From: a virus
Length of the DNA: 64,000 nt
Reading direction: 5' to 3' (one strand)
Virus record (IMG/VR): IMGVR_UViG_3300046170_000505
A program made the translations under genes and the position numbers. Under the pieces are notes generated by a model. It was given only the letters and a program-made list of their open reading frames with translations. It was not told the DNA's origin and did not search any database. Within the stretch, counting starts at the first letter, position 1. Each line of letters opens with the position of its first letter. This document shows positions 356 to 22,381 of the stretch, in pieces.

Positions 356-362
356 CTTATTT

Positions 363-2388: not shown

Positions 2389-2399
2389 GTTCTTTAACA
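2389..2399 (+). promoter_or_regulatory. boxA-like antitermination element upstream of the tmRNA
   Basis: GTTCTTTAACA, close to the bacterial boxA GCTCTTTAACA; preceded by GTGTA at 2374. Confidence 0.45.
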
Positions 2400-2405
2400 T
2401 TTTAT

Positions 2406-2802
2406 GGGGGTGTACTGGATTCGACTATTATTGGATTCATGCACTGCAAGCAGGAGTGCGTCTGGCTCCTCAAAAAGGCGCAAAATGTTACATGGCAAAA
2501 CGTCACGTTTCAAAGCTTTCGGCTTCAAAAAAAGCCGTGGGCTTGCTTTAGCAGCTTAAGTCTGCTACCTCTTACCTTTTGACGCAGATAAAAGGGATAA
2601 GGGGTCATTGATCTGCAAAACAGAAAAGGTTTACCTGTTCATAAACTGTATCGCTGAGTATTCGGAGACCTCATTTTGAGTGAATAATTGTAATAGGTAG
2701 TTCGATGTTAGTATCAATAACTTAAAAAGAAACTAAATAAGCTTGTAGACGTGTATTTTTGAAAATCTTAGGACGCGGGTTCAACTCCCGCCACCTCCAC
2801 CA
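2406..2802 (+). ncRNA. ssrA: tmRNA; tag reading frame 2494-2559 (A)GKTSRFKAFGFKKSRGLALAA
   Basis: 5' GGGGGTGTACTGGATTCGAC; 3' GCGGGTTCAACTCCCGCCACCTCCACCA; G3-U70 acceptor pair; pk1 GGAG/CTCC + TGCGTC/GGCGCA; tag ends LAA-stop. Confidence 0.95.
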
Positions 2803-2827
2803 ATTTAAAAGTGTATATATCATATAT

Positions 2828-4855
2828 ATGAAGTTATTTTTGTTAGTTTTTCTTTCCACTGTTAGTTGCTTTGGCTCCACCCTTTACTTCAAGGATGGAA
2901 ATTCTATTGATGCAAAAATACTAGAAGCTAATGAAACACACGTAACAGTTGCAAGAGAAAAAGATTTGCAACAGTTTCGTTTTAAAATCAATTTTCTAAC
3001 AATAGATTCTAAAAAACAAATAGAACTATATCACTCAAAAGACAGGTACAGCACGATACCTTCTGTAAAAATACCCATAGATGATAAAACGTTAAAAAAT
3101 TACACGTCTTACATCGACCAATTGATTGACAACAATTTAAGATCAAAAAGGTTGCAAAAAACAAAACCTCTTGATGACCACGCTTATGTGAGACGAGCTT
3201 ATCTTACAGTTATAGGTAGAATACCTACCCAAAATGAAACTTTATCCTTTCTAGAAGATAGAGATTCAAATAAAAAAGATAAATTAATACAAAAATTATT
3301 GCATTCAAATGGTTATGTAAATCATCAACTTAATTGGTGGAGCGATATGCTTCGTATTAAAGACAGACCACAGGGAACTAACATCAATGTTGGATCAGTT
3401 TACAGGCAGTGGTTAAGAGAATCCTTACATAACAAAAAGAAATATGATGAAATAGTAAAAGGTTTAGTGGGTAGTACTGGTAAACTGCTTGATGGGGGAG
3501 CTGCTGTTAGCTATTATTTGAGAGACAGAGGGATGCAGGAAGACAACCTTTCTCATACAATCAGAATCTTTTTAGGCACCAGACTTGAGTGTGCAATGTG
3601 CCACGACCACCCATTTGACAAATGGAGCCAAAAGCAATTTTATGAAATGACCGCTTTTACATCAGGAATAGGTAATGTTAGATTGAGAGATGGTGGTAAA
3701 GCCATCGGCGCCTTAAGTAGAGCTATCAATGCTGATGGAGATGTAAATGCAGGAACATTCAATAATTGGAGAAATCAAGTTAGAGATTCCATACAATTCG
3801 GAATAGAAAATAATGGTACTGGGGTTATTAAACTACCAGTTGATTTTGCAGAGGACAATGGGCAACCTGGCGAAGAAGTGTTAGCTAAAGCAATTTTCAC
3901 CCCCAAACCAACTGGAAAAACTAAAGGTAATAGTAGAAAAATTTTTGCAGATTGGATTACAAGTAAAGATAACCCTCGCTTTACCACAATGATATCCAAT
4001 AGGATTTGGAAGCAAATTTTTGGAGCAGGTTTGATAGAGCCTATTGATTCAATGATGGATGATACTGTGGCCAGCAATCAGCCTTTAATGAAATATGTAG
4101 AAAGACTTATGGTCAGCGTAAACTATGACTTAAGAGAATTTCAAAGGATATTATTGAATACAAAATTATTTCAAAGGCAAAGCAAGCAGCATGACCACAA
4201 AAGCTTAGAGGAGTATAATTTCGAAGGTCCAATACTAAAAAGGATGACAGGCGAACAGCTTTGGGATTCATTAGTTACTTTAGCTTACAACAATATTGAT
4301 TCCAAAGAAAGGGTCTACCTACATAATCAACAAGACTATTATCCTATCTATGAAAGATATAAAGATATGACAGGCGAAGAAATTTACGCAGATTTCAAAT
4401 TACTAGCGGAACAGAACAAGGGTAACAGAAACTTACTAGGAATAATTAATTCAGAATACATTTTTAATAAAAAATTTAAAGATAGAAATTTAGTTCGCAG
4501 TAGTTACTTACAGTATCCAGCCCCAGGAGGCCACCTAATAAGACAGTTTGGTGGTAGCGACAAGGAGCAAATAGATAATAGCAATTCAGAACCAAACACA
4601 ACACAAGTTCTTAATTTATTAAACGGTTTTGTTGAAACTAATATTTTAAATAAAAAAGACGCCGACTTTATTGTGCAGATGCAATCTGAAAAAAACAAAC
4701 AAAGCCAAGTTGAAAACGCCTTTCTTTCTATCTTATGCCGTAAACCCAACTCAAGAGAATCTAGTATATTAAAAGATTTCATAGACGAAAAAGACGGCTT
4801 TAAGCATGTATCTTGGATACTACTAAACAGTCATGAGTTTATTTTTATAAAATAG
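2828..4855 (+). CDS. secreted DUF1549/DUF1553 (PSD1/planctomycete cytochrome-like) protein
   Basis: Signal peptide MKLFLLVFLSTVSCFG; YVRRAYL..GRIP; CAMCHDHPFDKW; NRIWKQIFGAGL; LLNSHEF. Start moved from 2759 because that extension lies inside the tmRNA. Confidence 0.9.
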   Translation: MKLFLLVFLSTVSCFGSTLYFKDGNSIDAKILEANETHVTVAREKDLQQFRFKINFLTIDSKKQIELYHSKDRYSTIPSVKIPIDDKTLKNYTSYIDQLIDNNLRSKRLQKTKPLDDHAYVRRAYLTVIGRIPTQNETLSFLEDRDSNKKDKLIQKLLHSNGYVNHQLNWWSDMLRIKDRPQGTNINVGSVYRQWLRESLHNKKKYDEIVKGLVGSTGKLLDGGAAVSYYLRDRGMQEDNLSHTIRIFLGTRLECAMCHDHPFDKWSQKQFYEMTAFTSGIGNVRLRDGGKAIGALSRAINADGDVNAGTFNNWRNQVRDSIQFGIENNGTGVIKLPVDFAEDNGQPGEEVLAKAIFTPKPTGKTKGNSRKIFADWITSKDNPRFTTMISNRIWKQIFGAGLIEPIDSMMDDTVASNQPLMKYVERLMVSVNYDLREFQRILLNTKLFQRQSKQHDHKSLEEYNFEGPILKRMTGEQLWDSLVTLAYNNIDSKERVYLHNQQDYYPIYERYKDMTGEEIYADFKLLAEQNKGNRNLLGIINSEYIFNKKFKDRNLVRSSYLQYPAPGGHLIRQFGGSDKEQIDNSNSEPNTTQVLNLLNGFVETNILNKKDADFIVQMQSEKNKQSQVENAFLSILCRKPNSRESSILKDFIDEKDGFKHVSWILLNSHEFIFIK

Positions 4856-4868
4856 TGTATTAATTATT

Positions 4869-6135
4869 ATGAACGACGAAATATCGAGAAGAAGTTTTGC
4901 GAAACAAATCGCGAAGAGTTACTTAGGTGTTAGCGCCCTAGTTTATGGCTCAGATTTAATAGCTAATTCAGTCAGGATACCAACAGCCAGACACGTTATA
5001 TTCCTGAACATGACTGGGGGCATGACTCATCTGGATACTTTTGACCCGAAACCAGAAAACAAAGAGGTCATGGGCGAAACTTCTGCGATTGATACTTCTG
5101 CAGATGGAATTCAACTAGGTCATTGGCTACCTAAGACTGCAAAACAAATGCATTTAGGGTCACTTGTTCGGTCCATCAACAGCAATCAAGGAGCTCATGA
5201 CCAAGCTAATTATTTATTACACACTAGTTATCAAAAAAGAGGAACCATTATTCACCCTAGCATGGGCAGCTGGGTCAGCAAGCACTGCGGTAAGTTAAAC
5301 GAAACATTACCAGATAATGTTAAAATTAATGGAGGTAGTGGCATTATTGGGGCTGGCTATTTCGAAAGCAAGCATGGCCCACTTCCTTTAGGTAACCCTA
5401 ATGCAGGAATACAAAACGTTAAAAAATCTGAATATGTTGAAAAAAGCATGTATAATCGGCGCCTAGAAGCTTCTCGATTATTAAATAAAGATTTCAACGA
5501 AGACTTCCCTCAAAAGCAAGTCCGAGCCTATTCAGATTTATATGATAACGCCATAAGCCTGATGCAGAGCAAAGACTTAGAGGCTTTTGATTTAACTAAA
5601 GAGCCCCAAGTATTGAGAGACAGATATGGCTCAGATAACTTCGGTCAAGGCTGTTTGCTTGCGCGAAGATTGATTGAGAATAAAGTTCGATTTGTTGAAG
5701 TTTCTTACGGCGGTTGGGATATGCACAACGATGTTTTCGGAAATATGGAAACAAGAGGCGAAGTTCTTGATACTGGTTTAAGTTCCTTACTAGAAGATCT
5801 TAATACAAGGGGCTTACTGTCTGATACCATGGTTGTAGTCGCTAGTGAATTTGGAAGAAGTCCAGAAATCAAAGCTGGCAGAATAGGCAGGGATCACCAC
5901 CCCTCTGCTTTTAGTGCTTTTTTTTGCTGGGGGAGGAGTTAAAGAAGGTTTTGTTTACGGAAAATCAGATGATAGAGCTCATTATGTAGAAGAAAATGGG
6001 GTAGATATTGAATCCATAAATGCTACAATAGCTTATGCTATGGGTCTTAGTGTCGAAAAAATTACATACTCTCCAAGTGGTCGCCCCTTTAAAGTTTCAA
6101 ACGGCAAGCCTCCTATTTTAGACATTCTTTCTTAA
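4869..6135 (+). CDS. DUF1501 family protein with Tat signal, split by a +1 frameshift in a T8 run at 5918-5925
   Basis: SRRSF Tat motif; GGMTHLDTFDPKP; GQGCLLARRL; GWDMH; SEFGR; RDHHP..F|AGGGVK. Removing one T joins ORFs 4869..5942 and 5914..6135. Confidence 0.88.
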
Positions 6136-6759
6136 ATGTTTTATACGGCTCTAGATACTTTGCGCACTAGAGAGATTCGCACTGTTATTAATCTGGAGAC
6201 TCAACCTATTCCAGAATTATTAAAAGCAGAAGGCAAAAACTTAAACGATAAACAAACTAAAAAAGAATTATCTAATCATAAATACAACTTTATATCTAAA
6301 ATTTTTATACAACAATCTCCTGGGTCAAAGATAATCATTGATTTAAACACTACGGATTTAATAATTAATTCAAAAGAATTTATAGCTCCGCAAAAATCTA
6401 GTGAGGTTCCAGAGTGTGAATACAAAAAATATTTCAAGTCATTAAAGTCTGCTGAATTAGATAAAATAAAAGTCAATTCTTTTAAAGTTCAAGGCGTTTC
6501 TTTTCTTAGGCATCGTTTTATTATATCTAATAGACGTACTCACGGTGACCTTAAGAAATTTTTTACTTATTCACGAAGAAATTGGGACATTAATGTGTCT
6601 AATATATTTTTAGACGACTCGATAATTATTAAAACTAATTCTAGAAATAATCAGTTTTCATTATCTTTTCCACATGAATGGAAAAAATTACACGGCGCTC
6701 TTGTTGAAGAGAGTGACTCGAATGAAATATCGTTTATTTCTGAGTGTACTAATATATAA
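6136..6759 (+). CDS. hypothetical protein
   Basis: 207-aa ORF abutting the upstream stop. Confidence 0.6.
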   Translation: MFYTALDTLRTREIRTVINLETQPIPELLKAEGKNLNDKQTKKELSNHKYNFISKIFIQQSPGSKIIIDLNTTDLIINSKEFIAPQKSSEVPECEYKKYFKSLKSAELDKIKVNSFKVQGVSFLRHRFIISNRRTHGDLKKFFTYSRRNWDINVSNIFLDDSIIIKTNSRNNQFSLSFPHEWKKLHGALVEESDSNEISFISECTNI

Positions 6760-6776
6760 CAACCAGATTAAACGTT

Positions 6777-7520
6777 ATGGCTACTTATTATTATCAATTC
6801 GACAGAACTTCTTCTAACTTTAATTTTACAACGACAACAACTATCCCCGATAGCGGTTACGATATATCAGAATTTAATGGAGATTCTAGAGGGATTCCAA
6901 GAGTTGCTGATTGGACTGACTTTTCCTCTTTTAACCTTTCTCAGTTTAATAAATTAGTTGATTCTTTTGGCTTGACTAGCAATAGTTCATTGGGTTATTT
7001 CAGTTGGAATAGCGACCCGCAACGATTAAATGGAAATAAATATTATCGTGATTCAAACTCTAATCGTGCATATTATCTTGGAATGTCTTTCGGTTCTGAG
7101 TATAATGGTGGATGGCATTCATTGAATACTATATCTTCTAGTCCAATCAAAAAGCTTCATGTGGGTTCTTGGAGAGGCGCAAGACCTGTTTTAGTTTACT
7201 TCCCCGACTATCAAGCAAATGGGGGGCATTCTACTTTGGTAATAAATAATTCAATTACTACAACTTGGGATAGTACAAATGAGCAATTTTCATCTTCGGG
7301 TGGAAGCACAACTTTGTCTCACAATGGAACTACTTGGGTTATAAATAACAATGGAAATTCTTCTAGTGCCAGCTTAAGTAGTTCAAATGTTGGCTCTCAT
7401 GTTGACCCTGCAAGTTCGGATATAGTTTGGCAAAATAATTCTTCTGTAACTATTCCATCAGCAGGAGGTTCAGGCGATCCAATGATCGAAACCTTTGACG
7501 GTAAAAGCTATAGGCTTTAA
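6777..7520 (+). CDS. Ser/Asn/Thr-rich putative virion/adhesin-like protein ending in a VWD-like GDP..TFDG motif
   Basis: Composition; C-terminus GGSGDPMIETFDGKSYRL. Confidence 0.55.
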   Translation: MATYYYQFDRTSSNFNFTTTTTIPDSGYDISEFNGDSRGIPRVADWTDFSSFNLSQFNKLVDSFGLTSNSSLGYFSWNSDPQRLNGNKYYRDSNSNRAYYLGMSFGSEYNGGWHSLNTISSSPIKKLHVGSWRGARPVLVYFPDYQANGGHSTLVINNSITTTWDSTNEQFSSSGGSTTLSHNGTTWVINNNGNSSSASLSSSNVGSHVDPASSDIVWQNNSSVTIPSAGGSGDPMIETFDGKSYRL

Positions 7521-7729
7521 ACTCCGCCTTTTATATCTTTTAGCATTTCTAATCTGTCCTTGGCGTCTTTCATAAGCGCCAAGGCTTTTTCTGCGTCTGT
7601 ATAAAAATCTTCAGCGGAGTGCCCGCCAATACCAGTTTCTTTTTCGCCAAGAAGTTTAAGGGTTAATCTTCCTTTTGCGTAATCTGCTTCTGCAGATGTT
7701 TTCAACATCAAATATAACTCTTCGTTCAT
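7517..7729 (-). CDS. hypothetical protein
   Basis: 70-aa ORF co-oriented with and downstream of the cysC fusion. Confidence 0.65.
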   Translation of the reverse strand: MNEELYLMLKTSAEADYAKGRLTLKLLGEKETGIGGHSAEDFYTDAEKALALMKDAKDRLEMLKDIKGGV

Positions 7730-7735
7730 AATAAT

Positions 7736-8566
7736 TTATTCAGGTCTTTTTCCTGTAGGTTTTCCGTCTTGACCTATCTCTCCAGCCCTAATTTTCGTGG
7801 CTGATACAGATTGAAGCTCTTTACTTAATTCAAGTTGTTCAATATTATAACCAACACCTCTTCCATAAAATACGTCGGTAATATTTGGAAGTTCAACAAC
7901 TTTAATTTTATCTCCAAATTCAACGCATGCGGCATGAATTTCGGCTTTTACTTTTTGAAAATCATACGGATTGCTTTCATCTATGCCAGCGACATCTCTT
8001 AATGCTATACAGCATTGACCTGTGCGCTTAACCGATTCTGCAACCAAAGTCTTATGCCCTACATGAAAAGGCTGATACCTGCCTATAAGAAGAGCTGTAG
8101 GAGCCTGATTGTTCCATTTTTCAGTTTCAAAAATGTTTTCTAATGCGGTTTCACACCATTCTTCTGGGGTGCCTTCTCTTAATATTAGGTCATGCTCGTC
8201 CCATCTTTCATCTTTTGTCGGGTCTTCAAAAAGTTTATTGGTGTCTTCGTATCTTCCTTCTTTTATTCTATCTACCCAAATTACAAAATCTGGATTAAAA
8301 GCTTCTCTAGTTTCTTCAGTTGGACAACAAAAGTCAGATATAACATATCCTCCCCCTAAAGCAGCCCAGTCTGAAAGCTTTCCCATTCTTCTAGCATGCT
8401 CTGTACGATCTTCTGCTGAGAACCCCAGGTCTTTGTGTATTTCTTGTCTCACTGCATCTGCATTGAACCAAACTGCGTTTAATTTAGCTACTAACTTTTC
8501 AGCTAGAGTTGTTTTGCCTGAACCAGGCAAACCCATAATAAGTATCTTGCGTTTAACTTTCATCAC
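7736..8566 (-). CDS. cysC: adenylylsulfate kinase fused to a C-terminal HxGH nucleotidyltransferase domain
   Basis: GLPGSGKTT P-loop; NADAVR..DLGFSAEDR; FCCPT..R; second domain GRYQPFHVGH..SATKIR. Confidence 0.85.
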   Translation of the reverse strand: MMKVKRKILIMGLPGSGKTTLAEKLVAKLNAVWFNADAVRQEIHKDLGFSAEDRTEHARRMGKLSDWAALGGGYVISDFCCPTEETREAFNPDFVIWVDRIKEGRYEDTNKLFEDPTKDERWDEHDLILREGTPEEWCETALENIFETEKWNNQAPTALLIGRYQPFHVGHKTLVAESVKRTGQCCIALRDVAGIDESNPYDFQKVKAEIHAACVEFGDKIKVVELPNITDVFYGRGVGYNIEQLELSKELQSVSATKIRAGEIGQDGKPTGKRPE

Positions 8567-8650
8567 CTATATATAAGTACATTCAAAAATTGAAAATGGG
8601 CAAAAAAAAGCTTGACTTTATTTCTTATATTTTATATTATCTCTACATTA

Positions 8651-8857
8651 ATGAGAATCATTAGAAGAAATATTATCAAAGGCAAAGATTCATTCTATGT
8701 CGTAACGAGAGATAATCGTAGGGTTGAGCCCCACAATTATAAAGCAAAATGGGAAGCCGAAGAGCGAGCTGATATATTAATAAATATGGTTAACAATTTT
8801 GATCCAAAATCAAAAGTGGCTATAGTTTATACTTCCATTCCAGAAAAAGTCAGATAA
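8651..8857 (+). CDS. hypothetical protein
   Basis: ATG downstream of TTGACT-17-TATTAT (8612-8640). Confidence 0.6.
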   Translation: MRIIRRNIIKGKDSFYVVTRDNRRVEPHNYKAKWEAEERADILINMVNNFDPKSKVAIVYTSIPEKVR

Positions 8858-9285
8858 TGAACGTAAAATATAAATTACTTAATGCATTAGCTTCACCCCC
8901 AGAAACAGCGAACACTGGAGATGCGGGTTTTGATTTAAAAGCTACGGCAATAACTTATCCATCTGAAGGCGTAGGTGTCTTTATCGAAGTCTGTACTGGT
9001 TTATCTTTTGAAATTCCTAGCGGATATGTTGGTTTAGTTTTTCCTAGATCTAGTATATCTAATACCAAGCATTTTCTTAGAAATTCTGTGGGCGTTATTG
9101 ATAGCGGCTATAGAGGTGAAATTAAATTAAGGTTTTCTATGGATGACAGTAACACCGCTTATCAAATCGGAGATAAAGTTGGCCAAATTGTTTTCCTTAA
9201 ATTGCCTAAAGTAAATTTAGTTCAATCAGAGGATTTGTCTTTAACTTCTAGAAATACAGGAGGGTTTGGTAGCAGTGGACAATAA
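8857..9285 (+). CDS. dut: trimeric dUTPase
   Basis: AGFDL, PRSS, GVIDSGYRGEI, Q, RNTGGFGSSG motifs I-V. Confidence 0.96.
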   Translation: MNVKYKLLNALASPPETANTGDAGFDLKATAITYPSEGVGVFIEVCTGLSFEIPSGYVGLVFPRSSISNTKHFLRNSVGVIDSGYRGEIKLRFSMDDSNTAYQIGDKVGQIVFLKLPKVNLVQSEDLSLTSRNTGGFGSSGQ

Positions 9286-9482
9286 CTTATTAAACTATTG
9301 TGCAAATAAATTCTGCCCATATATAATTATATCGTGTTTTTTATTTTATAATTCTGGGTTAGAGGTTTGGAAATCAATAATCATCTTAGGGATGTGTGTT
9401 TTTATTGAAAAATTTAATTTCAAGGCTGGATATAGCCTAGCTTATTGCGAATTAAATGGTATTGATTTAGATAACCAAAAAG

Positions 9483-9737
9483 ATGATTAAGACTTTGATA
9501 AATAAATTAAATAGTTTCTCTAATCGCGTAAGAAATAATTTCCACAAGTATTATATTGTTTACAGATGCCAAGATGGAAAGACGAAAACTTATATGGTGG
9601 GAGATATCAATCTTTACAATTCCTTCAGCAACAAAAACGAAAAAAGAGATAATGCAGGGTTCAAAGCTTATTGTTTTGCCCGAAAACAAATTCGTTCTTT
9701 CCGACATGATAGAATAGTATCGATCACTAAAAAATAG
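9483..9737 (+). CDS. stand-alone WYL-like domain protein
   Basis: Y..DG.....AYCFARKQIRSFRHDRI; paralogue of 57941..58171. Confidence 0.6.
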   Translation: MIKTLINKLNSFSNRVRNNFHKYYIVYRCQDGKTKTYMVGDINLYNSFSNKNEKRDNAGFKAYCFARKQIRSFRHDRIVSITKK

Positions 9738-9739
9738 TT

Positions 9740-10318
9740 TTGTTTGATTTAGTTTTACCCTCGTTATTACTAGCGAGTTTGGCTTTTTTTGCCTATTTTT
9801 ATTTTTCTCGTGTAAATAAAAACAGCTCCATTGATTTAGAGAAAATACTAGAGAGAGAACAAAAAACCAAAATAGAATTTGAAAAAAAACTTGAATTATT
9901 ACAAAACCAAGTTATTACTTTAAAAGAAAACAACGTAAAACTAGATTCATCTTATTTAAACTTAAACTCAAATTACAAAGATTTAGAATCAAGTTCCCTA
10001 AAAAATGTCAAATCCCTCGAAGAGCAACTCAGTGAATTATCAGAGGAAAAAAGAAAAATCGTCTCACAAAAGAAAAGTAGCGAAGTCAGGCTTGGTCACA
10101 TAGCCGAAACACTAGCTCCTTTTCTAGATCAATTCAACTTTAACCCAGAACATTGCATTTTCCTCGGAAGACCTATTGACTACATTTCTTTTGGAAGTAA
10201 AGAAATCACCTTTATTGAAATAAAAAGCGGCAAAAGCCAACTAAACTCAAAACAAAGATTAATTAGAGACCAAGTCCACAATAAGGAAGTAGCTTGGAAA
10301 GAGATTAGAATAATTTAA
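9740..10318 (+). CDS. membrane-anchored Holliday-junction-resolvase-like PD-(D/E)XK endonuclease
   Basis: N-terminal TM and coiled coil; G.IAE.LAPF..FLGRPIDYI..FIEIKSG..L...Q. Confidence 0.8.
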   Translation: MFDLVLPSLLLASLAFFAYFYFSRVNKNSSIDLEKILEREQKTKIEFEKKLELLQNQVITLKENNVKLDSSYLNLNSNYKDLESSSLKNVKSLEEQLSELSEEKRKIVSQKKSSEVRLGHIAETLAPFLDQFNFNPEHCIFLGRPIDYISFGSKEITFIEIKSGKSQLNSKQRLIRDQVHNKEVAWKEIRII

Positions 10319-10332
10319 CCCACAAACTAAAT

Positions 10333-10980
10333 ATGAAAAATAAAATCGTATCACTGTTGACCGCCCTAGGGCTTTCTTTTAACGTCGCTTCTGCGAGTAA
10401 CTCTGCGAGTATTGGATATGCATCTGATTTCTTTTACAGGGGATCTCAAAAAGCAGAAGAATCTGTAAAAACTTCTGTAATGCTTTCGCATTCTACTGAA
10501 TTAGCTAGCTTGAGCGCTCATGTATGCTCTAACCAAGCTGTTTCTTCTGGAAATGATAGCTACCATATGGGATTTGGAGCCAGCAAATCTTTTGCCGATC
10601 TTCTCTCTGTTTATGTTGGATTTAATCATTTTGAAGATGTCCCAGGCTCTTCATTATCTGAAGTTGAGATGTCTTTTAGTCTAGACAAGGCTTTCTCGCC
10701 CAAGCTCTCTGTTTATCGTGACTTAGACGAGTCTATTTACACTGTAGAGGGTGGAGTATCTTATTCTGTGGACAGCCCTATTGGCTTTGTTCAACTCGAT
10801 GCTTTGGCTGGTAACACAGAGCTTAATGAAGTTTCTGATTTAGACTATTATGTTCTAGGAGCTTCTGTCTCTTACGATCTCTCAGAATCATCCGCTTTAG
10901 GTTTTTCGGTTGACTATGTTGACCCAGAAAACACAGATGAAGAATTCGTCGTTGGCACTTCTTTGAGTTTTAATTTCTAA
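10333..10980 (+). CDS. outer-membrane beta-barrel protein
   Basis: Signal peptide; YASDFFYRG; alternating beta strands; terminal LSFNF. Confidence 0.75.
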   Translation: MKNKIVSLLTALGLSFNVASASNSASIGYASDFFYRGSQKAEESVKTSVMLSHSTELASLSAHVCSNQAVSSGNDSYHMGFGASKSFADLLSVYVGFNHFEDVPGSSLSEVEMSFSLDKAFSPKLSVYRDLDESIYTVEGGVSYSVDSPIGFVQLDALAGNTELNEVSDLDYYVLGASVSYDLSESSALGFSVDYVDPENTDEEFVVGTSLSFNF

Positions 10981-11005
10981 TTTAAACCCCCAACAAACTA
11001 AAATT

Positions 11006-11245
11006 ATGGACAAAATCACAGAAACCTTAAAAGGCACCATCGGTGGTCTTTTTACATTATTAACCTCGGTCATTGGACTACTTGTATTAGCTTCAGTAGT
11101 CTTTGGCGAAAAAGCTGGAATGAATGTTATCAGCAATCTCCAGGGAATCGTCAATGGCTTTGTCGGCCCAGAGTCAAGCCTTGCAGGCCTCATTACTCTA
11201 GTATTGATTGTCGGCTTACTCATGAAGCAAAACGAAAAGAATTAA
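11006..11245 (+). CDS. small two-TM membrane protein
   Basis: Two hydrophobic helices. Confidence 0.7.
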   Translation: MDKITETLKGTIGGLFTLLTSVIGLLVLASVVFGEKAGMNVISNLQGIVNGFVGPESSLAGLITLVLIVGLLMKQNEKN

Positions 11246-11267
11246 TCTCTTTTAAATTTTGACGATT

Positions 11268-11298
11268 AGGGGGGCTTTTTAGCCCCCCTTTTTTTTTT
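11268..11298 (+). terminator. intrinsic terminator
   Basis: AGGGGGGCT-TTTT-AGCCCCCCT followed by a T run. Confidence 0.9.
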
Positions 11299-11357
11299 CG
11301 AAAAATTTTCCGCAGATTAAGTTGAAATACAGTGGACTATATATTATAATAGAAGAA

Positions 11358-11573
11358 ATGAGTGATGAAAATTTTTATGTTGGAGGGCCAAGAGACTACG
11401 ATGAGCAAACTGATGCTTTTCGCTTCGATTTAGACAGTTTAGTTTATAGATATATAGATGAATTTGATATTAATACATACGTTATGGTAGGAGCTCTTCA
11501 AGAAAAAATAAAAGAGTTACTAGAAGCTAATGACAGTGAAATAGAAATGGATTTTGAAGACGATGAAGACTAA
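11358..11573 (+). CDS. acidic hypothetical protein
   Basis: ATG start preferred over the upstream TTG. Confidence 0.6.
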   Translation: MSDENFYVGGPRDYDEQTDAFRFDLDSLVYRYIDEFDINTYVMVGALQEKIKELLEANDSEIEMDFEDDED

Positions 11574-12132
11574 AGTTATAGGTATTACTGGTTTTGCTAG
11601 ATCAGGAAAAGATACTTTTTACAATTACAGCTCTAAAATTTTAGACAAAGCTAATTGCACAAGATATGCTTTTGCAGACGCACTTAAGGATGAATGCGAT
11701 TCTTTCTTAAAAGATAATGTTGGTATTTCTTCTTTTACGGAAGATTTAGTCGATAAAGAATTTATAAGACCTTTTTTAGTGACATATGGAACGCATCTAA
11801 GGAGAAAAAAAGACCCAAATTGTTGGGTTAAAAAAGTTGAAAGATTAATACAAGAAAATATTTCAGATTCATCTAAAAATTTTGTTTTTATAACTGATGT
11901 GAGGTTTAAAAATGAAGCCGAATGGGTTAAATCGCTAGGGGGTTATATATTTCAAATCACAAGAGAGGGTTTTGGTCCTGCCAACGAAGAAGAGCACGTT
12001 CAATCCGCGTTAATCAAACCTCTTGTTGATTTTCATGTTATGTGGCCTACGCTTGGAGAAAATATTGATTCTTGCGTAAAATACATAAAACCTATTATCA
12101 AAAAAAATTTCCGCGAGCATACTAGCTCATAG
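11554..12132 (+). CDS. deoxynucleoside monophosphate kinase (phage type)
   Basis: GITGFARSGKDT; FADALK; R.FL..YGT; ITDVRF.NE. Confidence 0.88.
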   Translation: MKTMKTKVIGITGFARSGKDTFYNYSSKILDKANCTRYAFADALKDECDSFLKDNVGISSFTEDLVDKEFIRPFLVTYGTHLRRKKDPNCWVKKVERLIQENISDSSKNFVFITDVRFKNEAEWVKSLGGYIFQITREGFGPANEEEHVQSALIKPLVDFHVMWPTLGENIDSCVKYIKPIIKKNFREHTSS

Positions 12133-12142
12133 TGGACTATAT

Positions 12143-12313
12143 ATGAAAGAATCTTCTCAAAAAAAATATCTTAATACTGAAAAGGGGAAACAATCTCTTT
12201 CTAAAGCTCAAAAAAAATACGATTCCGAAAATATTGAAAAAAGAAAAGAGCAAAAAAGAAATTATATGCGCAGAAAAAGGGCTGAAAACCCTAATTACTG
12301 CAAATGGAAGTAG
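12143..12313 (+). CDS. small basic hypothetical protein (56 aa)
   Basis: MKESSQKKY...YMRRKR..; not in the ORF track. Confidence 0.55.
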   Translation: MKESSQKKYLNTEKGKQSLSKAQKKYDSENIEKRKEQKRNYMRRKRAENPNYCKWK

Positions 12314-12359
12314 ATTATCCTATTGACATGTATAGTTAAATATGTTTTAATATTTAGCA

Positions 12360-14349: not shown

Positions 14350-14735
14350 CCGTATTAGAATACTTAAAATCAAACTCTTATAAATCGATATTTAATTACA
14401 TACAAAAAGAATTCTACCCTTCAGACATTTATAAAAATGAAGAAATAATGTCTAAAGACATGTTCTTTCATAGATTGTATTTATCTTTATGTTCTTTAGA
14501 TATTGAACATTTAAGCAAGCACAAGTTGTATGTCACTCAATTTTACGACAAAGAAGAAAAAATTGACATTTGTGTTTTAGAAGAAATGGAAGATGCACTT
14601 TTGCCTTTAGATTTGTTTTCATGCAGCCAGCTTTTATCCTTAAACGTAGAAAAAGCTTTAAAAATAAAAGATTCAAATTGGTTGGCTTTTTTTATGTATA
14701 AAATTACTCAATTTAAAGTATCATTAAATCTATGA
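14346..14735 (+). CDS. hypothetical protein
   Basis: Translationally coupled ORF. Confidence 0.6.
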   Translation: MTVLEYLKSNSYKSIFNYIQKEFYPSDIYKNEEIMSKDMFFHRLYLSLCSLDIEHLSKHKLYVTQFYDKEEKIDICVLEEMEDALLPLDLFSCSQLLSLNVEKALKIKDSNWLAFFMYKITQFKVSLNL

Positions 14736-15247
14736 ACATGTATAACTTGCCCACCCATCCTCAAAGCCCAAAAATAGTTAGATCTGTTATTGAAATTGAA
14801 GAAGGGTCAAAAAATAAATATGAATACAACGGCGACCTAGGAGTATTTGAATATGATAGATGCCTGACTTCTGCCATGGTTTACCCCGCCAGTTATGGTT
14901 TTGTACCAAACACCTTATGTGATGACGGAGACCCTTTAGATATATTGGTTGTTAGCCCTGAACCCATAAAAAGAGCTACAGTTGTAAACACAAAGGTTTT
15001 AGGTGTTTTAGATATGGATGATGAAGGTGCCAAGGATTACAAAATAATTGGCGTACCAACTCATTATTCAAAAAAATATTATAACCTTAAAAGCTTAGAG
15101 CCAAGCTTCCTTCAAATTGCTAAAAATTTCTTCTCTCATTATAAAGATTTATCTCTTAGCGGCGAAAAAGTAAAAGTTTATCAATGGCACAGCAAAGATA
15201 TCGCTTTTGATATAATTAAAGAAAGTATAACAAAATGGACTCACTGA
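14732..15247 (+). CDS. ppa: family I inorganic pyrophosphatase
   Basis: NKYE; YPASYGFVPNTL; DGDPLDILV; DYKII; FFSHYK. Confidence 0.95.
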   Translation: MNMYNLPTHPQSPKIVRSVIEIEEGSKNKYEYNGDLGVFEYDRCLTSAMVYPASYGFVPNTLCDDGDPLDILVVSPEPIKRATVVNTKVLGVLDMDDEGAKDYKIIGVPTHYSKKYYNLKSLEPSFLQIAKNFFSHYKDLSLSGEKVKVYQWHSKDIAFDIIKESITKWTH

Positions 15248-15362: not shown

Positions 15363-16967
15363 GTGGATATCGATAAAATATTTGTTATAAATCTTAATGA
15401 CCGCAAAGATAAGTGGTCTAGTTTTGAAATTATACATGACAAAGTCGAAAGATTTGAGGCTGTTGACTCAAGAACAAATCAATTCATAAATAAAGACTTT
15501 AATTTAAAACTTTTCCCAGTCGGCTTAAATCAAGAAATTTATTTTTCTCAATTTCCTGGTGCAATAGGATGCTATTTAAGTCACTATTTGCTTTGGCAAA
15601 AGATAGTCAAAGAAAAAATACAGACTTCTTTAATTTTAGAAGACGATGCTAACGCTTGCGATGTAGATTATTTTTTAAAATCAAACCCTTCGTACTCAAA
15701 ACACTACGACTTAATACAACTAAATAAACGTAGCCCTAAAAACCCTCAATTTTTTAATGGTACTGAAAGTTATATTCTAACTTTAAAAGGCGCCAAAAAA
15801 CTTATTAATTTAACAAATAATCATTCTTGCTTCCAAGGATTATTTCGCTCTTTACCGCCAAGTAGAGCTGGCTATAACTATTCAAAATATGCTTGCTATA
15901 CACAAGAAGGTTCTCAAAATTGGTGTGAACCTAATTCTATTTGCGCAGCAGTTGATAGATTTATAGGCTTTTGTTCTTTCGAATCTATTTCATTTAGAAA
16001 TCGTTTAACAATTAATTTTGATCGGCGTATAGGTTTATCAAAATTAAATTCAGATTTAAAAACTGAAGATGTCAAACCCTACTGGCTGATGACTGAGAAT
16101 GAAACAAGTGCGTTCATTGATTCCAAAGATTTCAAATGGTGGGAAAATCAAAAGAGTATAAATAAATTTTTTGTAATAAATCTTGAAGACAGGCTGCATA
16201 GATATGAAGAATTTAAAAAAATTGGAGACATAGAGAGGTTTCCAGCTATAGATTCTAGGTCAAATTTTCACGTATATAAAGATTACGGTTTTGATCTAAA
16301 CTTAATGGGCTTAGCTAGTGACCTTTATTTTTCTCAAGCACCTGGAGCTGTAGGAATTTATTTAAGCCACTATTCTATATGGAAAAAGATGATTGAAGAA
16401 GATATCGAGCTTTGCATGATCATGGAGGACGATGCCGAGACTCAGGACGTTTCCGATTACTTGTCTAAAAATAATCAATTTGATATTGATAATTATGATT
16501 TTTTTCAGTTAGGTAAGCGTTGCTCAAACGAATTAAGAGAATATTGTGGAAATTTTGACGGTTTAGAATCTTATGTGCTGACAAAAAAAGGTGCTGAAAT
16601 ACTTGTTAATGCTACCCATGATAATTCTTATTTTAATAATATTATCCATATAAAACCAAAAGGCTGGTTTCAAGGCGAAAACCCAAAGAAGTTTGATATT
16701 TTTAAAGATGAACCGCGCCAATTATGGGATAAAAAAAACTCTATAGCCTGTGCTGTCGATAAATTTATAGGTTATTGCGCCCACCCTAAAATAAACGCTT
16801 CAAAAAGATTGAGAATTAAAATAATGCCCAGAATTAATTTGCATAGTCAAGAAGTTAGCTCTGATGTTATGAATTTGAAAGATGCGCCTTGGTGGAACAA
16901 GAGCGAAGAAGAATTAAATTCTTTTTTAAATTCTAAACAATTCAAATATTGGGAAAATGAATCCTAA
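15363..16967 (+). CDS. glycosyltransferase family 25, internally duplicated (two GT25 domains)
   Basis: FVINL..R..ERF.A.D..G..G.YLSH..W....EDDA occurs twice. Confidence 0.85.
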   Translation: MDIDKIFVINLNDRKDKWSSFEIIHDKVERFEAVDSRTNQFINKDFNLKLFPVGLNQEIYFSQFPGAIGCYLSHYLLWQKIVKEKIQTSLILEDDANACDVDYFLKSNPSYSKHYDLIQLNKRSPKNPQFFNGTESYILTLKGAKKLINLTNNHSCFQGLFRSLPPSRAGYNYSKYACYTQEGSQNWCEPNSICAAVDRFIGFCSFESISFRNRLTINFDRRIGLSKLNSDLKTEDVKPYWLMTENETSAFIDSKDFKWWENQKSINKFFVINLEDRLHRYEEFKKIGDIERFPAIDSRSNFHVYKDYGFDLNLMGLASDLYFSQAPGAVGIYLSHYSIWKKMIEEDIELCMIMEDDAETQDVSDYLSKNNQFDIDNYDFFQLGKRCSNELREYCGNFDGLESYVLTKKGAEILVNATHDNSYFNNIIHIKPKGWFQGENPKKFDIFKDEPRQLWDKKNSIACAVDKFIGYCAHPKINASKRLRIKIMPRINLHSQEVSSDVMNLKDAPWWNKSEEELNSFLNSKQFKYWENES

Positions 16968-17850
16968 AATCACTATAGCAATATGCACCTACGACAATTA
17001 TAAAATTTTGTCCATCTGTTTGCGTTCTTTACTAAACCAATCTTGCCAAAGGTTTTTTTATGAAATTTTAGTTTTAGACAACACTCCGCACAAAGACTCT
17101 ACCTATAAAAACGAATGTATTGATATCTGCAATACGTTTGGTTTTGTTTATTTAAACAAGGAAACAAACGGTTTATCTGGAGCCAGAAATGAATGCGTTA
17201 AAAACTGTCGCACAGATCTAATACATTTTATAGACGATGATACAGTTTTGCCTGCAAACTTTATAGAAGAGTCAATAAATTGTTTTTATCTAGATGAAAC
17301 TCTTGCTGCATTCGGAGGGAAAGTTGTTCCCGACTGGAGGTTTGTTGATCGCCCTGCTTGGCTTAGCGATGATTATTTAGGTTTTTTGTCCATGGTTGAC
17401 TTTGGTAATGATAAGAAAATTTTTGGAGATGGTTTTAATTGGCTAGCTGGAGCAAATATTTGTTTTAAAAAATCTGTTTTTGAAAACTATGGTTTTTTTG
17501 ATGAATCTTTGGGGAGAAAAGGCGGGACATCTAGCCTTCTTGGCGCCGAAGAGAATAATTTATTAAGAAACATGATCAAAAAAGAAAAAGTTATATACAA
17601 TCCATTTTCCATGCTTTCTCATATTGTCCCACCAGAAAGAGTTTGTCAATCTTGGTTTATTAAAAGAGCTTCCTGGGGTGTTGTTTCAGATATACTTATT
17701 AATTGCCCTTGGGGTTCTTACTCTAAAGATTTCCTTAAAGACAATATGCACGTGTTGTTAGAAGAAGCTCAAGATGAAGAAGTTTTTAAATTAAGAATGA
17801 AATTAGCCCATGAGTTAAATTATGGACTTTTAAAAACAGGATTATTATGA
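16957..17850 (+). CDS. glycosyltransferase family 2
   Basis: IAICTY; VLDN; GLSGARN; FIDDD; GANI; GAEE. Confidence 0.92.
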   Translation: MNPKITIAICTYDNYKILSICLRSLLNQSCQRFFYEILVLDNTPHKDSTYKNECIDICNTFGFVYLNKETNGLSGARNECVKNCRTDLIHFIDDDTVLPANFIEESINCFYLDETLAAFGGKVVPDWRFVDRPAWLSDDYLGFLSMVDFGNDKKIFGDGFNWLAGANICFKKSVFENYGFFDESLGRKGGTSSLLGAEENNLLRNMIKKEKVIYNPFSMLSHIVPPERVCQSWFIKRASWGVVSDILINCPWGSYSKDFLKDNMHVLLEEAQDEEVFKLRMKLAHELNYGLLKTGLL

Positions 17851-21211: not shown

Positions 21212-21596
21212 TGGTTATTTTGATCCCATTCACGTGGGGCATTTAGAATATCTTCGTCTAGCTAAAGAGCTTGGTGATTATTTGATAGTGATCGTAAATA
21301 ATGACTACCAATGCGAGCTTAAAAAAGGCAAATCTTTTATGGCTGAAGAAGATCGTGTTGAGATCGTAAAAGCCTTAGGGATAGTTGATGAAGTTTTCCT
21401 TGCCGTAGATAAGGATAGAAGCGTATGCGCTTCTTTGGAACGCTTAAGGCCCGATATATTTGCTAATGGTGGAGACCGCAGCGTCGGTGAAATACCCGAA
21501 TCAAAAGTTATGGAAAAATATAATATTAAAATGGTTGATGGCTTAGGGGATAAGATAAGAAGCTCCTCAAGCTTAACAGGATTGAAAGAGAAATAA
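21192..21596 (+). CDS. cytidylyltransferase-like (TagD/RfaE2-type) nucleotidyltransferase
   Basis: SGYFDPIHVGH; KKG; FANGGDR; SSS. Confidence 0.88.
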   Translation: MKKVAVSGYFDPIHVGHLEYLRLAKELGDYLIVIVNNDYQCELKKGKSFMAEEDRVEIVKALGIVDEVFLAVDKDRSVCASLERLRPDIFANGGDRSVGEIPESKVMEKYNIKMVDGLGDKIRSSSSLTGLKEK

Positions 21597-22381
21597 TGCA
21601 AATAAATAAAACATTCATAGACAAACTATTGGTCTTTGGTAAAGAATTGGGGCAAGAAGTATTAGAAATTCAGCTTGATAAATCCAGCTTAGATGTTCAA
21701 ACCAAAAAAGATGATAGCCCTTTGAGTAGGGCTGACTTACATTCCAATAAAAGAATTAGAGCTTTTTTATCAGAAAACTCTGATGTTCAAAATTACATTT
21801 CAGAAGAAGACAAAGAAGTCTCCTATGAAGATCGTAAGAATTGGGGGTATTATTGGCTCATTGACCCCATAGACGGTACTAAGGAATTTATAAAAGGGGG
21901 TAGCGATTTCTGTATTAATATAGCTTTGTGCAAAGGTGACTCCCCTATTTTTGGTTATGTTGGATGTCCTGCTTTAGGTGATCAATATTACGCGATAGAA
22001 GGTAGGGGCGCATTTAAAAACAGTGAAAGAATTTTTTGCAATTCCATTGACCCTGATTCAAATACTTTAAATGTAGTTGCATCAAAGTCTCACATGAATG
22101 ATGAAACTAAAAATTTCATAGATAATCTTTCTGATTCTTTTGGGGTTGAACTTCTCAACGTGGGGAGCTCTCTCAAGTTCTGCATGTTAGCTGAAGGTAA
22201 AGCTGATGTTTATCCTCGCTTTGGCCCAACAATGGAGTGGGACACTTGTGCCCCCCAAATCATAGCTGAAGAAAGCGGTGCCGACGTTTTTATAGCTGAT
22301 AGCTTAGCGCCATTGACTTATAATAAAGAGAATTTACTTAATCCATTTTTTATTGTCACAAACACTACGTTGATACATTAA
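21596..22381 (+). CDS. cysQ: 3'(2'),5'-bisphosphate (PAP) nucleotidase
   Basis: SEE; WLIDPIDGTKEF; SKSH; GSSLKFC; YPRFGPTMEWDT. Confidence 0.95.
   Translation: MQINKTFIDKLLVFGKELGQEVLEIQLDKSSLDVQTKKDDSPLSRADLHSNKRIRAFLSENSDVQNYISEEDKEVSYEDRKNWGYYWLIDPIDGTKEFIKGGSDFCINIALCKGDSPIFGYVGCPALGDQYYAIEGRGAFKNSERIFCNSIDPDSNTLNVVASKSHMNDETKNFIDNLSDSFGVELLNVGSSLKFCMLAEGKADVYPRFGPTMEWDTCAPQIIAEESGADVFIADSLAPLTYNKENLLNPFFIVTNTTLIH

What the first reader, a model, noticed from the sequence alone, without database searches (positions are those of the whole stretch)
7736..8566. CysC-HxGH fusion may be a minimal one-gene PAPS synthase
Seen: a 276-aa protein with an APS kinase domain followed by a roughly 120-aa GRYQPFHVGH...SATKIR domain; no Sat or CysDN in the window. 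Established: Sat-type ATP sulfurylases belong to the same HxxH nucleotidyltransferase superfamily and are fused to APS kinase in PAPS synthases, but are much larger. Inference: the small domain is a stripped-down ATP sulfurylase.
Basis: partly seen in the sequence, partly recalled or inferred. Interest (0 to 1): 0.7.

Follow-up and report, generated by a model that had tools for sequence, protein, structure and literature searches.

The report
Phage mini PAPS synthase candidate
A large uncultured phage that carries several sulfate-adding enzymes also encodes a 276-residue two-part protein, a trimmed APS kinase joined to a tiny NMN-adenylyltransferase-like domain, which most likely makes the sulfate donor PAPS from sulfate on its own, using a kind of ATP sulfurylase that has not been described; no enzyme assay exists.

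Summary
Window 7736-8566 (-) encodes a 276-aa protein with two parts. The first is an APS-kinase-like P-loop domain (residues 1 to about 150). The second is a roughly 120-aa HxGH nucleotidyltransferase (NT) with GRYQPFHVGH, YGRGVGY and SATKIR. No Sat or CysD lies in the window.

The reading is partly supported. The small domain is not a cut-down Sat. By sequence profile it is NadM/archaeal-NMNAT-like, and it gives no profile match to Sat.

Context argues that it does Sat's job:
- The window also encodes three sulfotransferases, a CysQ-like PAP phosphatase and a pyrophosphatase.
- Five related phage contigs carry 5-10 sulfotransferases each and no Sat, CysD or CysH.
- The fusion also occurs in Alphaproteobacteria, Pelagibacteraceae and Saccharibacteria, and as two adjacent genes in SAR86. 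It often sits directly beside sulfotransferase genes.
- 22 of 50 such genomes have no Sat, CysD or CysH, and 16 of those 22 still have sulfotransferases.
- Kinase-only relatives nearly always co-occur with CysD/CysH (12 of 13).

Best reading, about 0.6: a compact PAPS synthase with a non-orthologous ATP sulfurylase domain. The activity is untested. This scan reached the same reading earlier on other phage genomes. I found no paper on this fusion.

The parts
7736..8566 (-). Whole gene, 276 aa: APS-kinase-like domain fused to a minimal HxGH nucleotidyltransferase. Stop codon at 7736-7738.
8117..8566 (-). N-terminal domain, residues 1 to about 150: a lid-shortened APS-kinase-like P-loop kinase. 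The P-loop G12-T20 lies at nt 8507-8533. D37, R40, F49 and R54 are conserved.
   Evidence: Pfam APS_kinase, 51.4 bits. The family profile matches PDB APS kinases at E 2e-17, with a deletion of about 23 residues in the lid. The top Foldseek hits are all APS kinases.
7739..8116 (-). C-terminal domain, residues about 151-276: a minimal HxGH nucleotidyltransferase and candidate non-canonical ATP sulfurylase.
   Evidence: Domain model pLDDT 91.5. VIA Z-scores: PPAT 9.9, NadM 9.7, MJ NMNAT 9.6, Thermus ATP sulfurylase 8.3. Profile hits are NadM/NMNAT only.
8054..8083 (-). GRYQPFHVGH motif, residues 162-171. G162, R163, Q165, H168 and H171 are invariant in 56 homologues.
7847..7867 (-). YGRGVGY, residues 234-240 (family consensus YGRDVGY). 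G235, R236 and G239 are invariant. It resembles the GRD-loop of ATP sulfurylase, but the structural equivalence was not verified.
   Evidence: The motif list for canonical ATPS comes from PMC6607087.
7787..7804 (-). SATKIR, residues 255-260: the ISxTxxR-type motif of the HxGH superfamily. R260 is invariant.
   Evidence: It aligns to ISGTxxR of Sat in hhalign.
7517..7729 (-). 70-aa ORF directly downstream on the same strand, probably co-transcribed. Function unknown.
   Evidence: No Pfam hit. Conserved next to the fusion in L003.
14732..15247 (+). Family I inorganic pyrophosphatase. It would pull the PPi-releasing sulfate activation step.
   Evidence: Pfam E 7e-47. Present in 4 of 4 near-complete related phage contigs.
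17847..19732 (+). Three tandem Sulfotransfer_2 genes (17847-18503, 18519-19112, 19109-19732). These are the PAPS consumers.
   Evidence: Pfam E 7e-13 to 1e-18.
21596..22381 (+). CysQ-like 3'(2'),5'-bisphosphate nucleotidase, which removes the PAP by-product.
   Evidence: TIGR01331 at 220.6 bits against a cut-off of 228.8. Over the cut-off in two related phages.
15363..17850 (+). GT25 and GT2 glycosyltransferases lying between the pyrophosphatase and the sulfotransferases. They probably build the glycan that is sulfated.

Best explanation
The gene encodes a compact bifunctional PAPS synthase.

Proposed steps:
1. The C-terminal ~120-aa HxGH nucleotidyltransferase transfers AMP from ATP onto sulfate, giving APS and PPi. 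This is an ATP sulfurylase reaction, inferred only.
2. The N-terminal lid-shortened APS kinase phosphorylates the 3'-OH of APS to give PAPS. This rests on homology and on conserved APS-contacting residues.
3. The phage pyrophosphatase removes PPi.
4. The phage sulfotransferases use PAPS, probably on a glycan built by the neighbouring glycosyltransferases.
5. CysQ removes PAP.

The NT domain descends from the NadM/archaeal-NMNAT branch of the superfamily, not from Sat. It has lost the roughly 25-residue segment between strands 3 and 4 and the C-terminal helical subdomain. It has gained two family-specific conserved arginines, R190 (near-invariant) and R236 (invariant).

Shown here: the domain architecture, the folds, the conserved motifs, the linkage to sulfotransferases, and the absence of canonical sulfate-activating enzymes in many carriers.

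Inferred: the substrate of the NT domain, the order of the reactions, and any channelling between the domains.
For: 1. The kinase domain is a true APS-kinase relative.
- The family profile matches PDB APS kinases at E 2e-17, and the best Foldseek hits are all APS kinases.
- K18 and R40 are invariant and D37, F49 and R54 near-invariant, aligned to the DGDxxR...F...R block of human PAPSS1.

2. The NT catalytic motifs are invariant in 56 homologues at 31-89% identity: H168, H171, R163, Q165, R236 and R260.

3. The window holds three sulfotransferases, CysQ and pyrophosphatase but no Sat or CysD.

4. Five related phage contigs, four of them at least 90% complete, carry 5-10 PF03567 genes each. None has PF01747 or PF01507.

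5. Sulfotransferase-like genes lie in the flanks of 58 of 161 loci.
- They are directly adjacent and co-oriented in 13 bacterial and 6 viral loci from different lineages.
- Ten of these were checked with Pfam. All hit Sulfotransfer_1, _2 or _3.

6. In SAR86 the two domains are separate, overlapping, adjacent genes beside a sulfotransferase. So the pairing is under selection.

7. Of 50 carrier genomes, 22 have no Sat and no CysD/CysH.
- These include a 4.0-Mb chromosome-level assembly, four MAGs of 5.3-5.6 Mb, all four SAR86 genomes and a Saccharibacteria genome.
- Only one of the 22 has AprA.
- 16 of the 22 carry Sulfotransfer_1 or _3 genes.

8. Kinase-only relatives co-occur with CysD/CysH in 12 of 13 genomes. 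Fisher p = 0.004 against the fusion carriers.
Against: - There is no biochemical evidence.
- The NT domain has no profile-level similarity to Sat. It lacks the QXRN and PFR motifs of canonical ATP sulfurylase.
- Its closest detectable relatives are NMN adenylyltransferases. PPAT scores highest by structure.
- Many carrier genomes are MAGs or SAGs of unknown completeness, so absences are soft. Restricted to genomes of at least 2.5 Mb, the contrast with kinase-only carriers is not significant (p = 0.14).
- About half of the carriers do have CysD/CysH, so the fusion is not always the only route.
- Some carriers show no sulfotransferase of the families searched. Xylella phage Salvo was searched for PF03567 only. 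Genome G010 was searched for PF00685 and PF13469 only.
- ATP sulfurylase is thermodynamically demanding. A 120-residue domain doing this reaction is unprecedented.
Confidence: 0.6

Rival explanations
1. Only the kinase half acts in sulfation. It is an APS kinase that uses APS made by the host's own ATP sulfurylase. The HxGH domain is a nucleotide-binding regulatory or oligomerisation module, or it acts on an unrelated substrate.
For: About half of the carrier genomes have CysD/CysH. The NT domain has no Sat signature. Fungal ATP sulfurylase sets a precedent for a kinase-like allosteric domain (established knowledge).
Against: 22 of 50 carriers lack Sat and CysD/CysH. Only one of the 22 has AprA, and 16 of the 22 have sulfotransferases. 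The catalytic HxGH and SxTxxR residues are invariant. The pairing is kept even when split into two genes in SAR86. Kinase-only forms go with CysD/CysH.
Confidence: 0.17
2. A permuted NadR-like NAD salvage enzyme. The P-loop domain phosphorylates nicotinamide riboside, and the NT domain adenylylates NMN to give NAD, for example to counter NAD-depleting host defences.
For: The best sequence relatives of the NT domain are NadM and archaeal NMNAT (E 4e-8 to 4e-7; NCBIfam NMNAT/Nudix E 3e-7). NadR structures appear among the structural matches (Z 8.1-8.7).
Against: Scores lie far below every NMNAT equivalog cut-off: 29.8 against 397, and 20.5 against 181. About 25 residues are missing between profile positions 68 and 90, relative to MJ0541 residues 64-109. 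By my recollection that segment helps form the nicotinamide pocket. The kinase domain is specifically APS-kinase-like. Neighbours are sulfotransferases; no NAD gene turned up among the neighbour clusters annotated.
Confidence: 0.05
3. A PPAT plus dephospho-CoA-kinase-like pair, or another 'adenylylate X-phosphate, then phosphorylate the 3'-OH' pathway. It would make CoA or some other 3'-phospho-ADP-linked cofactor.
For: PPAT is the top structural match (Z 9.9). The chemistry, adenylyl transfer followed by 3'-phosphorylation of the adenosine, has the same logic. Some automatic source names call homologues phosphopantetheine adenylyltransferase.
Against: No pantothenate or CoA genes were seen among the neighbours annotated. 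The conserved residues match the APS-contacting block of APS kinase. Linkage to PAPS-dependent sulfotransferases and to CysQ is strong.
Confidence: 0.05

Closest known systems
Metazoan bifunctional PAPS synthase (PAPSS1/2; PDB 1x6v, 1xjq)
   Same: One polypeptide, with an APS kinase at the N-terminus followed by an HxxH-superfamily adenylyltransferase. The APS-kinase domain is the best structural match. The proposed overall reaction, sulfate plus 2 ATP to PAPS, is the same.
   Different: PAPSS is about 620 aa, with a Sat-type sulfurylase that has a PUA-like domain and the QXRN, VGRDHAG and PFR motifs. Here the second domain is about 120 aa, NadM/NMNAT-like, with no profile match to Sat. The kinase lid is about 23 residues shorter.
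Bacterial Sat-APS kinase fusions (Aquifex aeolicus 2gks; Thiobacillus 3cr8) and CysN/CysC
   Same: Fusion of sulfate activation with APS kinase. The kinase domains are homologous.
   Different: The domain order is reversed (Sat, then kinase). The sulfurylase is of Sat or CysDN type. Neither type is present in the window or in the related phages.
NadM / archaeal NMN adenylyltransferase (PDB 2qjt, 2qjo, 1f9a, 1ej2)
   Same: Closest sequence relatives of the C-terminal domain. They share the GRFQPxHxGH motif, the NP motif after strand 2 and SGTxxR. VIA Z is 9.3-9.7.
   Different: About 25 residues are deleted between strands 3 and 4, and the C-terminal helical subdomain is missing. Scores lie far below the family cut-offs. 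There are family-specific conserved arginines, R190 (near-invariant) and R236 (invariant). The context is sulfation, not NAD metabolism.
NadR (NMNAT domain plus P-loop ribosylnicotinamide kinase)
   Same: An HxGH nucleotidyltransferase fused to a small P-loop kinase. It is a structural match at Z 8.1-8.7.
   Different: The domain order is opposite. The kinase here is of APS-kinase type, not RNK type.
Stand-alone APS kinase CysC (PF01583, TIGR00455)
   Same: The P-loop, the D..R...F...R APS-contacting block and the fold are shared.
   Different: Only the first 91 of 152 Pfam positions match. The score is 47.8 bits against the equivalog cut-off of 138.7. The lid is shortened and an NT domain is fused.

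Membership tests
Sat-type ATP sulfurylase (PF01747) | Profile-level sequence match to the ATP-sulfurylase catalytic domain | tested here: not met
   No PF01747 hit at E up to 1. The family profile finds no Sat among PDB sequences at E up to 10. hhalign against three Sat domains gives 2.8% probability and aligns only ISATxIR with ISGTxxR.
Sat-type ATP sulfurylase (PF01747) | HXXH motif | tested here: met
   H168-V-G-H171, both histidines invariant in 56 homologues. This motif is shared by the whole superfamily.
Sat-type ATP sulfurylase (PF01747) | QXRN motif just before HXXH (sulfate and phosphate anchoring; PMC6607087) | tested here: not met
   The sequence reads G-R-Y-Q-P-F before H168. An invariant R and Q are present but in NMNAT-type order and register.
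Sat-type ATP sulfurylase (PF01747) | VGRDHAG GRD-loop | tested here: inconclusive
   The family has an invariant G235-R236 in YGR(D/G)VGY after a strand. H-A-G is absent. I could not obtain a residue-level structural superposition to show equivalence.
Sat-type ATP sulfurylase (PF01747) | PFR motif and N-terminal PUA-like domain | tested here: not met
   There is no PFR in residues 150-276. The domain is about 120 aa and nothing precedes it except the kinase.
Sat-type ATP sulfurylase (PF01747) | HUP/HxGH nucleotidyltransferase fold | tested here: met
   VIA Z 8.3, rmsd 3.4 over 119 residues, to Thermus ATP sulfurylase 1v47. This is within about 1.6 Z of the best matches, which are PPAT and NMNAT. 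The result is at superfamily level only.
Sat-type ATP sulfurylase (PF01747) | Sulfate-dependent APS and PPi formation | not testable with these tools
   This needs an enzyme assay.
APS kinase (CysC; PF01583 / TIGR00455) | Walker A P-loop and fold | tested here: met
   GLPGSGKTT with invariant K18. The top Foldseek hits are APS kinases, E 8e-8, with TM up to 0.75 by target.
APS kinase (CysC; PF01583 / TIGR00455) | Curated score thresholds | tested here: inconclusive
   The Pfam cut-off is passed (51.4 against 21.1 bits). The TIGR00455 equivalog cut-off is missed (47.8 against 138.7).
APS kinase (CysC; PF01583 / TIGR00455) | APS-contacting block DGDxxR...DLGFSxEDRxE | tested here: met
   The P0001 segment NADAVRQEIHKDLGFSAEDRTEH aligns to [23 protein letters not shown] of human PAPSS1. 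R40 is invariant and D37, F49 and R54 are near-invariant.
APS kinase (CysC; PF01583 / TIGR00455) | Full-length lid segment between strand 4 and the C-terminal helix | tested here: not met
   Profile positions 94-107 face residues 104-140 of A. fulgidus APS kinase, which is about 23 residues shorter. The Pfam match stops at position 91 of 152.
NadM / archaeal NMN adenylyltransferase | GRFQPxHxGH and SGTxxR motifs | tested here: met
NadM / archaeal NMN adenylyltransferase | Equivalog-level score and complete central segment | tested here: not met
   Scores are 29.8 against 397 bits (NF003786) and 20.5 against 181 bits (TIGR01527). 21 profile positions face 46 residues (64-109) of MJ0541.
Bifunctional PAPS synthase (functional class) | Kinase and sulfate-activating domain in one protein, serving PAPS-dependent sulfotransferases | tested here: inconclusive
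   The architecture and the sulfotransferase, CysQ and PPase context are met. The sulfate-activating activity of the second domain is inferred only from missing-gene logic.

The most novel reading that the evidence does not exclude
The ~120-aa NadM-like domain is a third, previously unrecognised class of ATP sulfurylase, beside Sat and CysDN. It would be the smallest known.

Together with a lid-less APS kinase, it would be the sole route to PAPS in many marine phages, in SAR86, in some SAR11 relatives, in Saccharibacteria and in many soil Alphaproteobacteria. These organisms are currently scored as unable to activate sulfate.
Probability: 0.55. Interest if true: 0.85.

Novelty: new variant of a known kind. 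Interest (0 to 1): 0.72.

Why it matters
If the small domain really activates sulfate, three things follow.

1. Sulfate activation has a third enzymatic solution, one that current annotation pipelines miss. They call the protein 'kinase', 'KTI12', 'cytidyltransferase' or 'adenylylsulfate kinase'.

2. Genomes and phages scored as lacking ATP sulfurylase could in fact make PAPS and sulfated glycans or metabolites. These include SAR86, Saccharibacteria and many Alphaproteobacteria. That would change sulfur-cycle and cell-surface inferences drawn from metagenomes.

3. A protein of about 270 residues that makes PAPS would be a handy tool for regenerating PAPS in enzymatic sulfation.

For phage biology, it would mean a large marine phage carries a self-contained sulfation pathway: activation, transfer, by-product removal and PPi removal.

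Tried and rejected
- **Close annotated phage relative.** Megablast of window 1-20000 against annotated phages found no match, so no deposited annotation could be borrowed.
- **Window's own genome.** No whole genome is held for the window.
- **Foldseek on the isolated C-domain.** It gave only weak hits (best E 2e-3), led by NMNAT, PPAT and PanC with other folds further down. ATP sulfurylase was not among the 50 rows shown. VIA-align places Thermus ATP sulfurylase at Z 8.3, against 9.9 for PPAT. Fold alone cannot pick the substrate.
- **hhalign against a three-sequence Sat alignment.** No significant match.
- **Alternative architectures.**
  - Some homologues carry an N-terminal DUF4118 membrane domain, but their contigs are too short to give context.
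  - The NT-plus-chorismate-synthase protein P0265 looks like a gene-calling chimera.
  - Contigs of the stand-alone NT proteins P0225 and P0255 were also too short.
- **'CysA' neighbour cluster.** It turned out to be a mixed bag of ABC ATPases. Only the representative checked, from kinase-only locus L155, has the CysA C-terminal domain. I dropped the sulfate-transporter linkage.
- **Baseline for sulfotransferase frequency.** I tried the window's dUTPase as a query, but it retrieved only the same phage clade, so no independent baseline was obtained.
- **Second small HxGH gene at 21150-21596.** I considered it as the real sulfurylase. It is HldE-domain-II / TagD-like and accompanies the fusion in only 2 other loci, so it is more likely a sugar-phosphate nucleotidyltransferase.
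- **AprAB as an alternative APS source.** A true AprA is present in only 1 of the 22 genomes.
- **Literature.** Three searches found no paper on this fusion. A fourth search, for the NMN-pocket residues of NadM, gave nothing usable.

Full report
**Observation.** Window 7736-8566 on the minus strand is an open frame of 276 codons. It starts at a GTG that is followed at once by an ATG, and homologues begin at that M.
- Residues 8-89 match Pfam APS_kinase at 51.4 bits against a cut-off of 21.1. Only profile positions 5-91 of 152 are matched.
- Residues 160-184 match CTP_transf_like.
GRYQPFHVGH is residues 162-171 (nt 8054-8083). SATKIR is residues 255-260 (nt 7787-7804).
- PHROG 10255 ('kinase') matches the whole length at E 1.5e-54.
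- The big protein collection holds 6669 hits, many on marine contigs of 150-210 kb.
- AlphaFold gives pLDDT 93 and pTM 0.76.

So this is a real, conserved two-domain protein. In-house HMMs for Sat and CysD find nothing in the six frames of the window.

**The window.** It is phage-like: small co-oriented ORFs, about 33% G+C, dUTPase, UvdE, a resolvase, a dNMP kinase and one tRNA. No close cultured relative exists.

Between 6 and 14 kb from the fusion lie:
- a family I pyrophosphatase (14732-15247);
- GT25 and GT2 glycosyltransferases;
- three tandem Sulfotransfer_2 genes (17847-19732);
- a GNAT, a PMI-type cupin and a second small HxGH gene;
- a CysQ-like phosphatase (21596-22381), at 220.6 bits against the equivalog cut-off of 228.8.

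**The kinase half.**
- A profile of 56 full-length homologues hits PDB APS kinases at E 2e-17. The best Foldseek matches of the model are all APS kinases.
- The block NADAVRQEIHKDLGFSAEDRTEH aligns to [23 protein letters not shown] of human PAPSS1.
- K18 and R40 are invariant, and D37, F49 and R54 are near-invariant.
- The lid differs. Profile positions 94-107 face residues 104-140 of A. fulgidus APS kinase, about 23 residues fewer. The TIGR00455 equivalog cut-off is missed.

I read it as an active but divergent, lid-shortened APS kinase.

**The small half.**
- Folded alone, it gives pLDDT 91.5.
- VIA-align puts PPAT (Z 9.9), NadM NMNAT (9.7), M. jannaschii NMNAT (9.6), NadR (8.7) and Thermus ATP sulfurylase (8.3, 119 residues aligned) close together. 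The fold is that of the HxGH superfamily and does not name the substrate.
- By sequence profile, the only significant relatives are NadM and archaeal NMNAT (E 4e-8 to 4e-7). These matches cover only the first ~60 residues plus SGTxxR.
- 21 profile positions face 46 residues (64-109) of MJ0541, a deletion of about 25 residues.
- No Sat appears at E up to 10. hhalign against three Sat domains gives 2.8% probability.
- Canonical ATP sulfurylase is defined by QXRN, HXXH, VGRDHAG and PFR (PMC6607087). This family has HXXH, a GR(D) that may or may not be equivalent to the GRD-loop, and neither QXRN nor PFR.

So it is not a stripped-down Sat. It is a stripped-down NMNAT-like domain. Its catalytic residues are invariant (R163, Q165, H168, H171, R260), and it has two conserved arginines of its own, R190 (near-invariant) and R236 (invariant).

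**What it does: context.**

Related phages:
- Five related phage contigs, four of them at least 90% complete, carry 5-10 Sulfotransfer_2 genes each.
- Four of four near-complete ones have the pyrophosphatase, and two of four have CysQ.
- None has Sat, CysD or CysH.

Loci examined:
- 80 viral loci and 80 bacterial loci were examined.
- Iterated in-house HMMs found sulfotransferase-like genes in 58 of the 161 loci.
- These genes were directly adjacent and co-oriented in 13 bacterial and 6 viral loci.
- Ten were checked against Pfam. All hit Sulfotransfer_1, _2 or _3, eight of them above the cut-off.

Carriers:
- The bacterial carriers span Bradyrhizobium, Xanthobacteraceae, Hyphomicrobiaceae, Inquilinus, Acetobacteraceae, Pelagibacteraceae, SAR86, Saccharibacteria and Melainabacteria.
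- In SAR86 the two domains are separate genes whose ends overlap. They sit in a chromosomal setting beside tyrosyl-tRNA synthetase, or directly beside a sulfotransferase.
- Other neighbours in the phage loci are typical hypervariable-region genes and say nothing.

**The missing-gene argument.**
- Of 50 carrier genomes, 26 have any PAPS_reduct family hit (CysD/CysH). Four of those are weak partial hits only. Three genomes have Sat.
- Twenty-two have neither. They include a 4.0-Mb chromosome-level assembly, four MAGs of 5.3-5.6 Mb, all four SAR86 genomes and a 0.7-Mb Saccharibacteria genome.
- AprA, which could make APS from sulfite, is truly present in one of the 22.
- Sixteen of the 22 carry Sulfotransfer_1 or _3 genes. 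These families ring in only 2 of 14 control genomes.
- PAPS-dependent sulfotransferases need APS, and in these genomes the fused or adjacent HxGH domain is the only candidate left.
- Conversely, relatives that have only the kinase domain co-occur with CysD/CysH in 12 of 13 genomes.
- The contrast is significant over all genomes (Fisher p = 0.004). It is not significant when limited to genomes of at least 2.5 Mb (p = 0.14). It is not corrected for phylogeny or for completeness.

**Caveats.**
- There is no enzymology.
- MAG and SAG absences are soft.
- Half of the carriers also have the canonical pathway.
- Some carriers show no sulfotransferase of the families searched, so the product may have other uses. 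Xylella phage Salvo, a complete 55.6-kb genome, was searched for PF03567 only. Genome G010 was searched for PF00685 and PF13469 only.
- The equivalence of YGR(D)VGY to the GRD-loop is a resemblance, not a demonstrated superposition.
- The role I give to the deleted NMNAT segment, the nicotinamide pocket, rests on my recollection of the archaeal NMNAT structures.

**Rivals.**
- Kinase-only function with a regulatory NT domain: 0.17.
- A permuted NadR-like NAD salvage enzyme: 0.05.
- A PPAT/DPCK-like pair: 0.05.

Each is argued in its own section. None explains the sulfotransferase linkage together with the missing sulfurylase.

**Comparison and novelty.**
- It works like the animal PAPS synthase, with the same domain order and overall reaction, at less than half the size.
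- It is not a member of the Sat family.
- Four of the five literature searches asked about this fusion or about Sat motifs; none found a paper describing the fusion.
- Earlier follow-ups in this scan reached the same reading for homologues on other phage genomes. That is agreement between similar analyses, not independent evidence.
- I class it as a new variant of a known kind: a bifunctional PAPS synthase with a non-orthologous candidate sulfurylase. Confidence in the full mechanism is 0.6. Confidence is higher, about 0.85, that the protein's role is PAPS supply for sulfotransferases.

Noticed in passing
window 2759-5942: A PSCyt2/PSD1 (DUF1549/DUF1553) protein of 698 aa lies next to a DUF1501 protein of 357 aa inside the phage-like window. 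This pair is typical of Planctomycetes and Verrucomicrobia and is unusual as phage cargo. It may hint at the host.
   Followed up: no
window 2406-2802: ARAGORN calls a tmRNA here that overlaps the start of the 698-aa ORF. It is probably a false call, but I did not check it against Rfam.
   Followed up: no
window 21150-21596: A second small HxGH nucleotidyltransferase of 148 aa, HldE-domain-II / TagD-like. Its stop overlaps the start of CysQ. It accompanies the fusion in only two other loci (L005, L061).
   Followed up: partly
L158, L160, L162 (about 7998-8811 in each locus): In SAR86 chromosomes the fusion is split into a 136-aa kinase gene and a 130-132-aa NT gene that overlap by 8 nt. In L158 and L160 they lie directly after a 370-aa Sulfotransfer_3 gene.
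   Followed up: partly
P0122, P0187, P0206 (metagenomic proteins): Some family members carry an N-terminal DUF4118 membrane domain in front of the kinase, which suggests membrane-anchored forms. Their contigs are too short to give context.
   Followed up: partly
L097, L115, L119 (next to the fusion): In Inquilinus and Rhodospirillales the neighbour is an arylsulfotransferase (ASST) family protein. ASST enzymes are generally regarded as PAPS-independent, so this pairing is unexplained.
   Followed up: no
window 26106-26879: A 257-aa ORF gives a weak match to the C-terminal domain of arginine-tRNA-protein transferase (ATE_C, E 7e-7).
   Followed up: no
L001 (Xylella phage Salvo, record 15167-15913) and its relatives: Cultured Casjensviridae phages (Salvo, Sano, Bacata, Seregon, AhaSv, Bhz60, Suzuki) carry the fusion at 36-39% identity, annotated 'kinase' or hypothetical. 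In the records of Bacata and Bhz60 the gene beside it is annotated as COG3236 / GTP cyclohydrolase II or riboflavin biosynthesis. Salvo, the only one searched, has no Sulfotransfer_2 gene.
   Followed up: partly
window 7517-7729 (-): A 70-aa ORF lies immediately downstream of the fusion on the same strand. Together they form the only minus-strand cassette in a plus-strand region. It has no family match and is conserved in L003.
   Followed up: no
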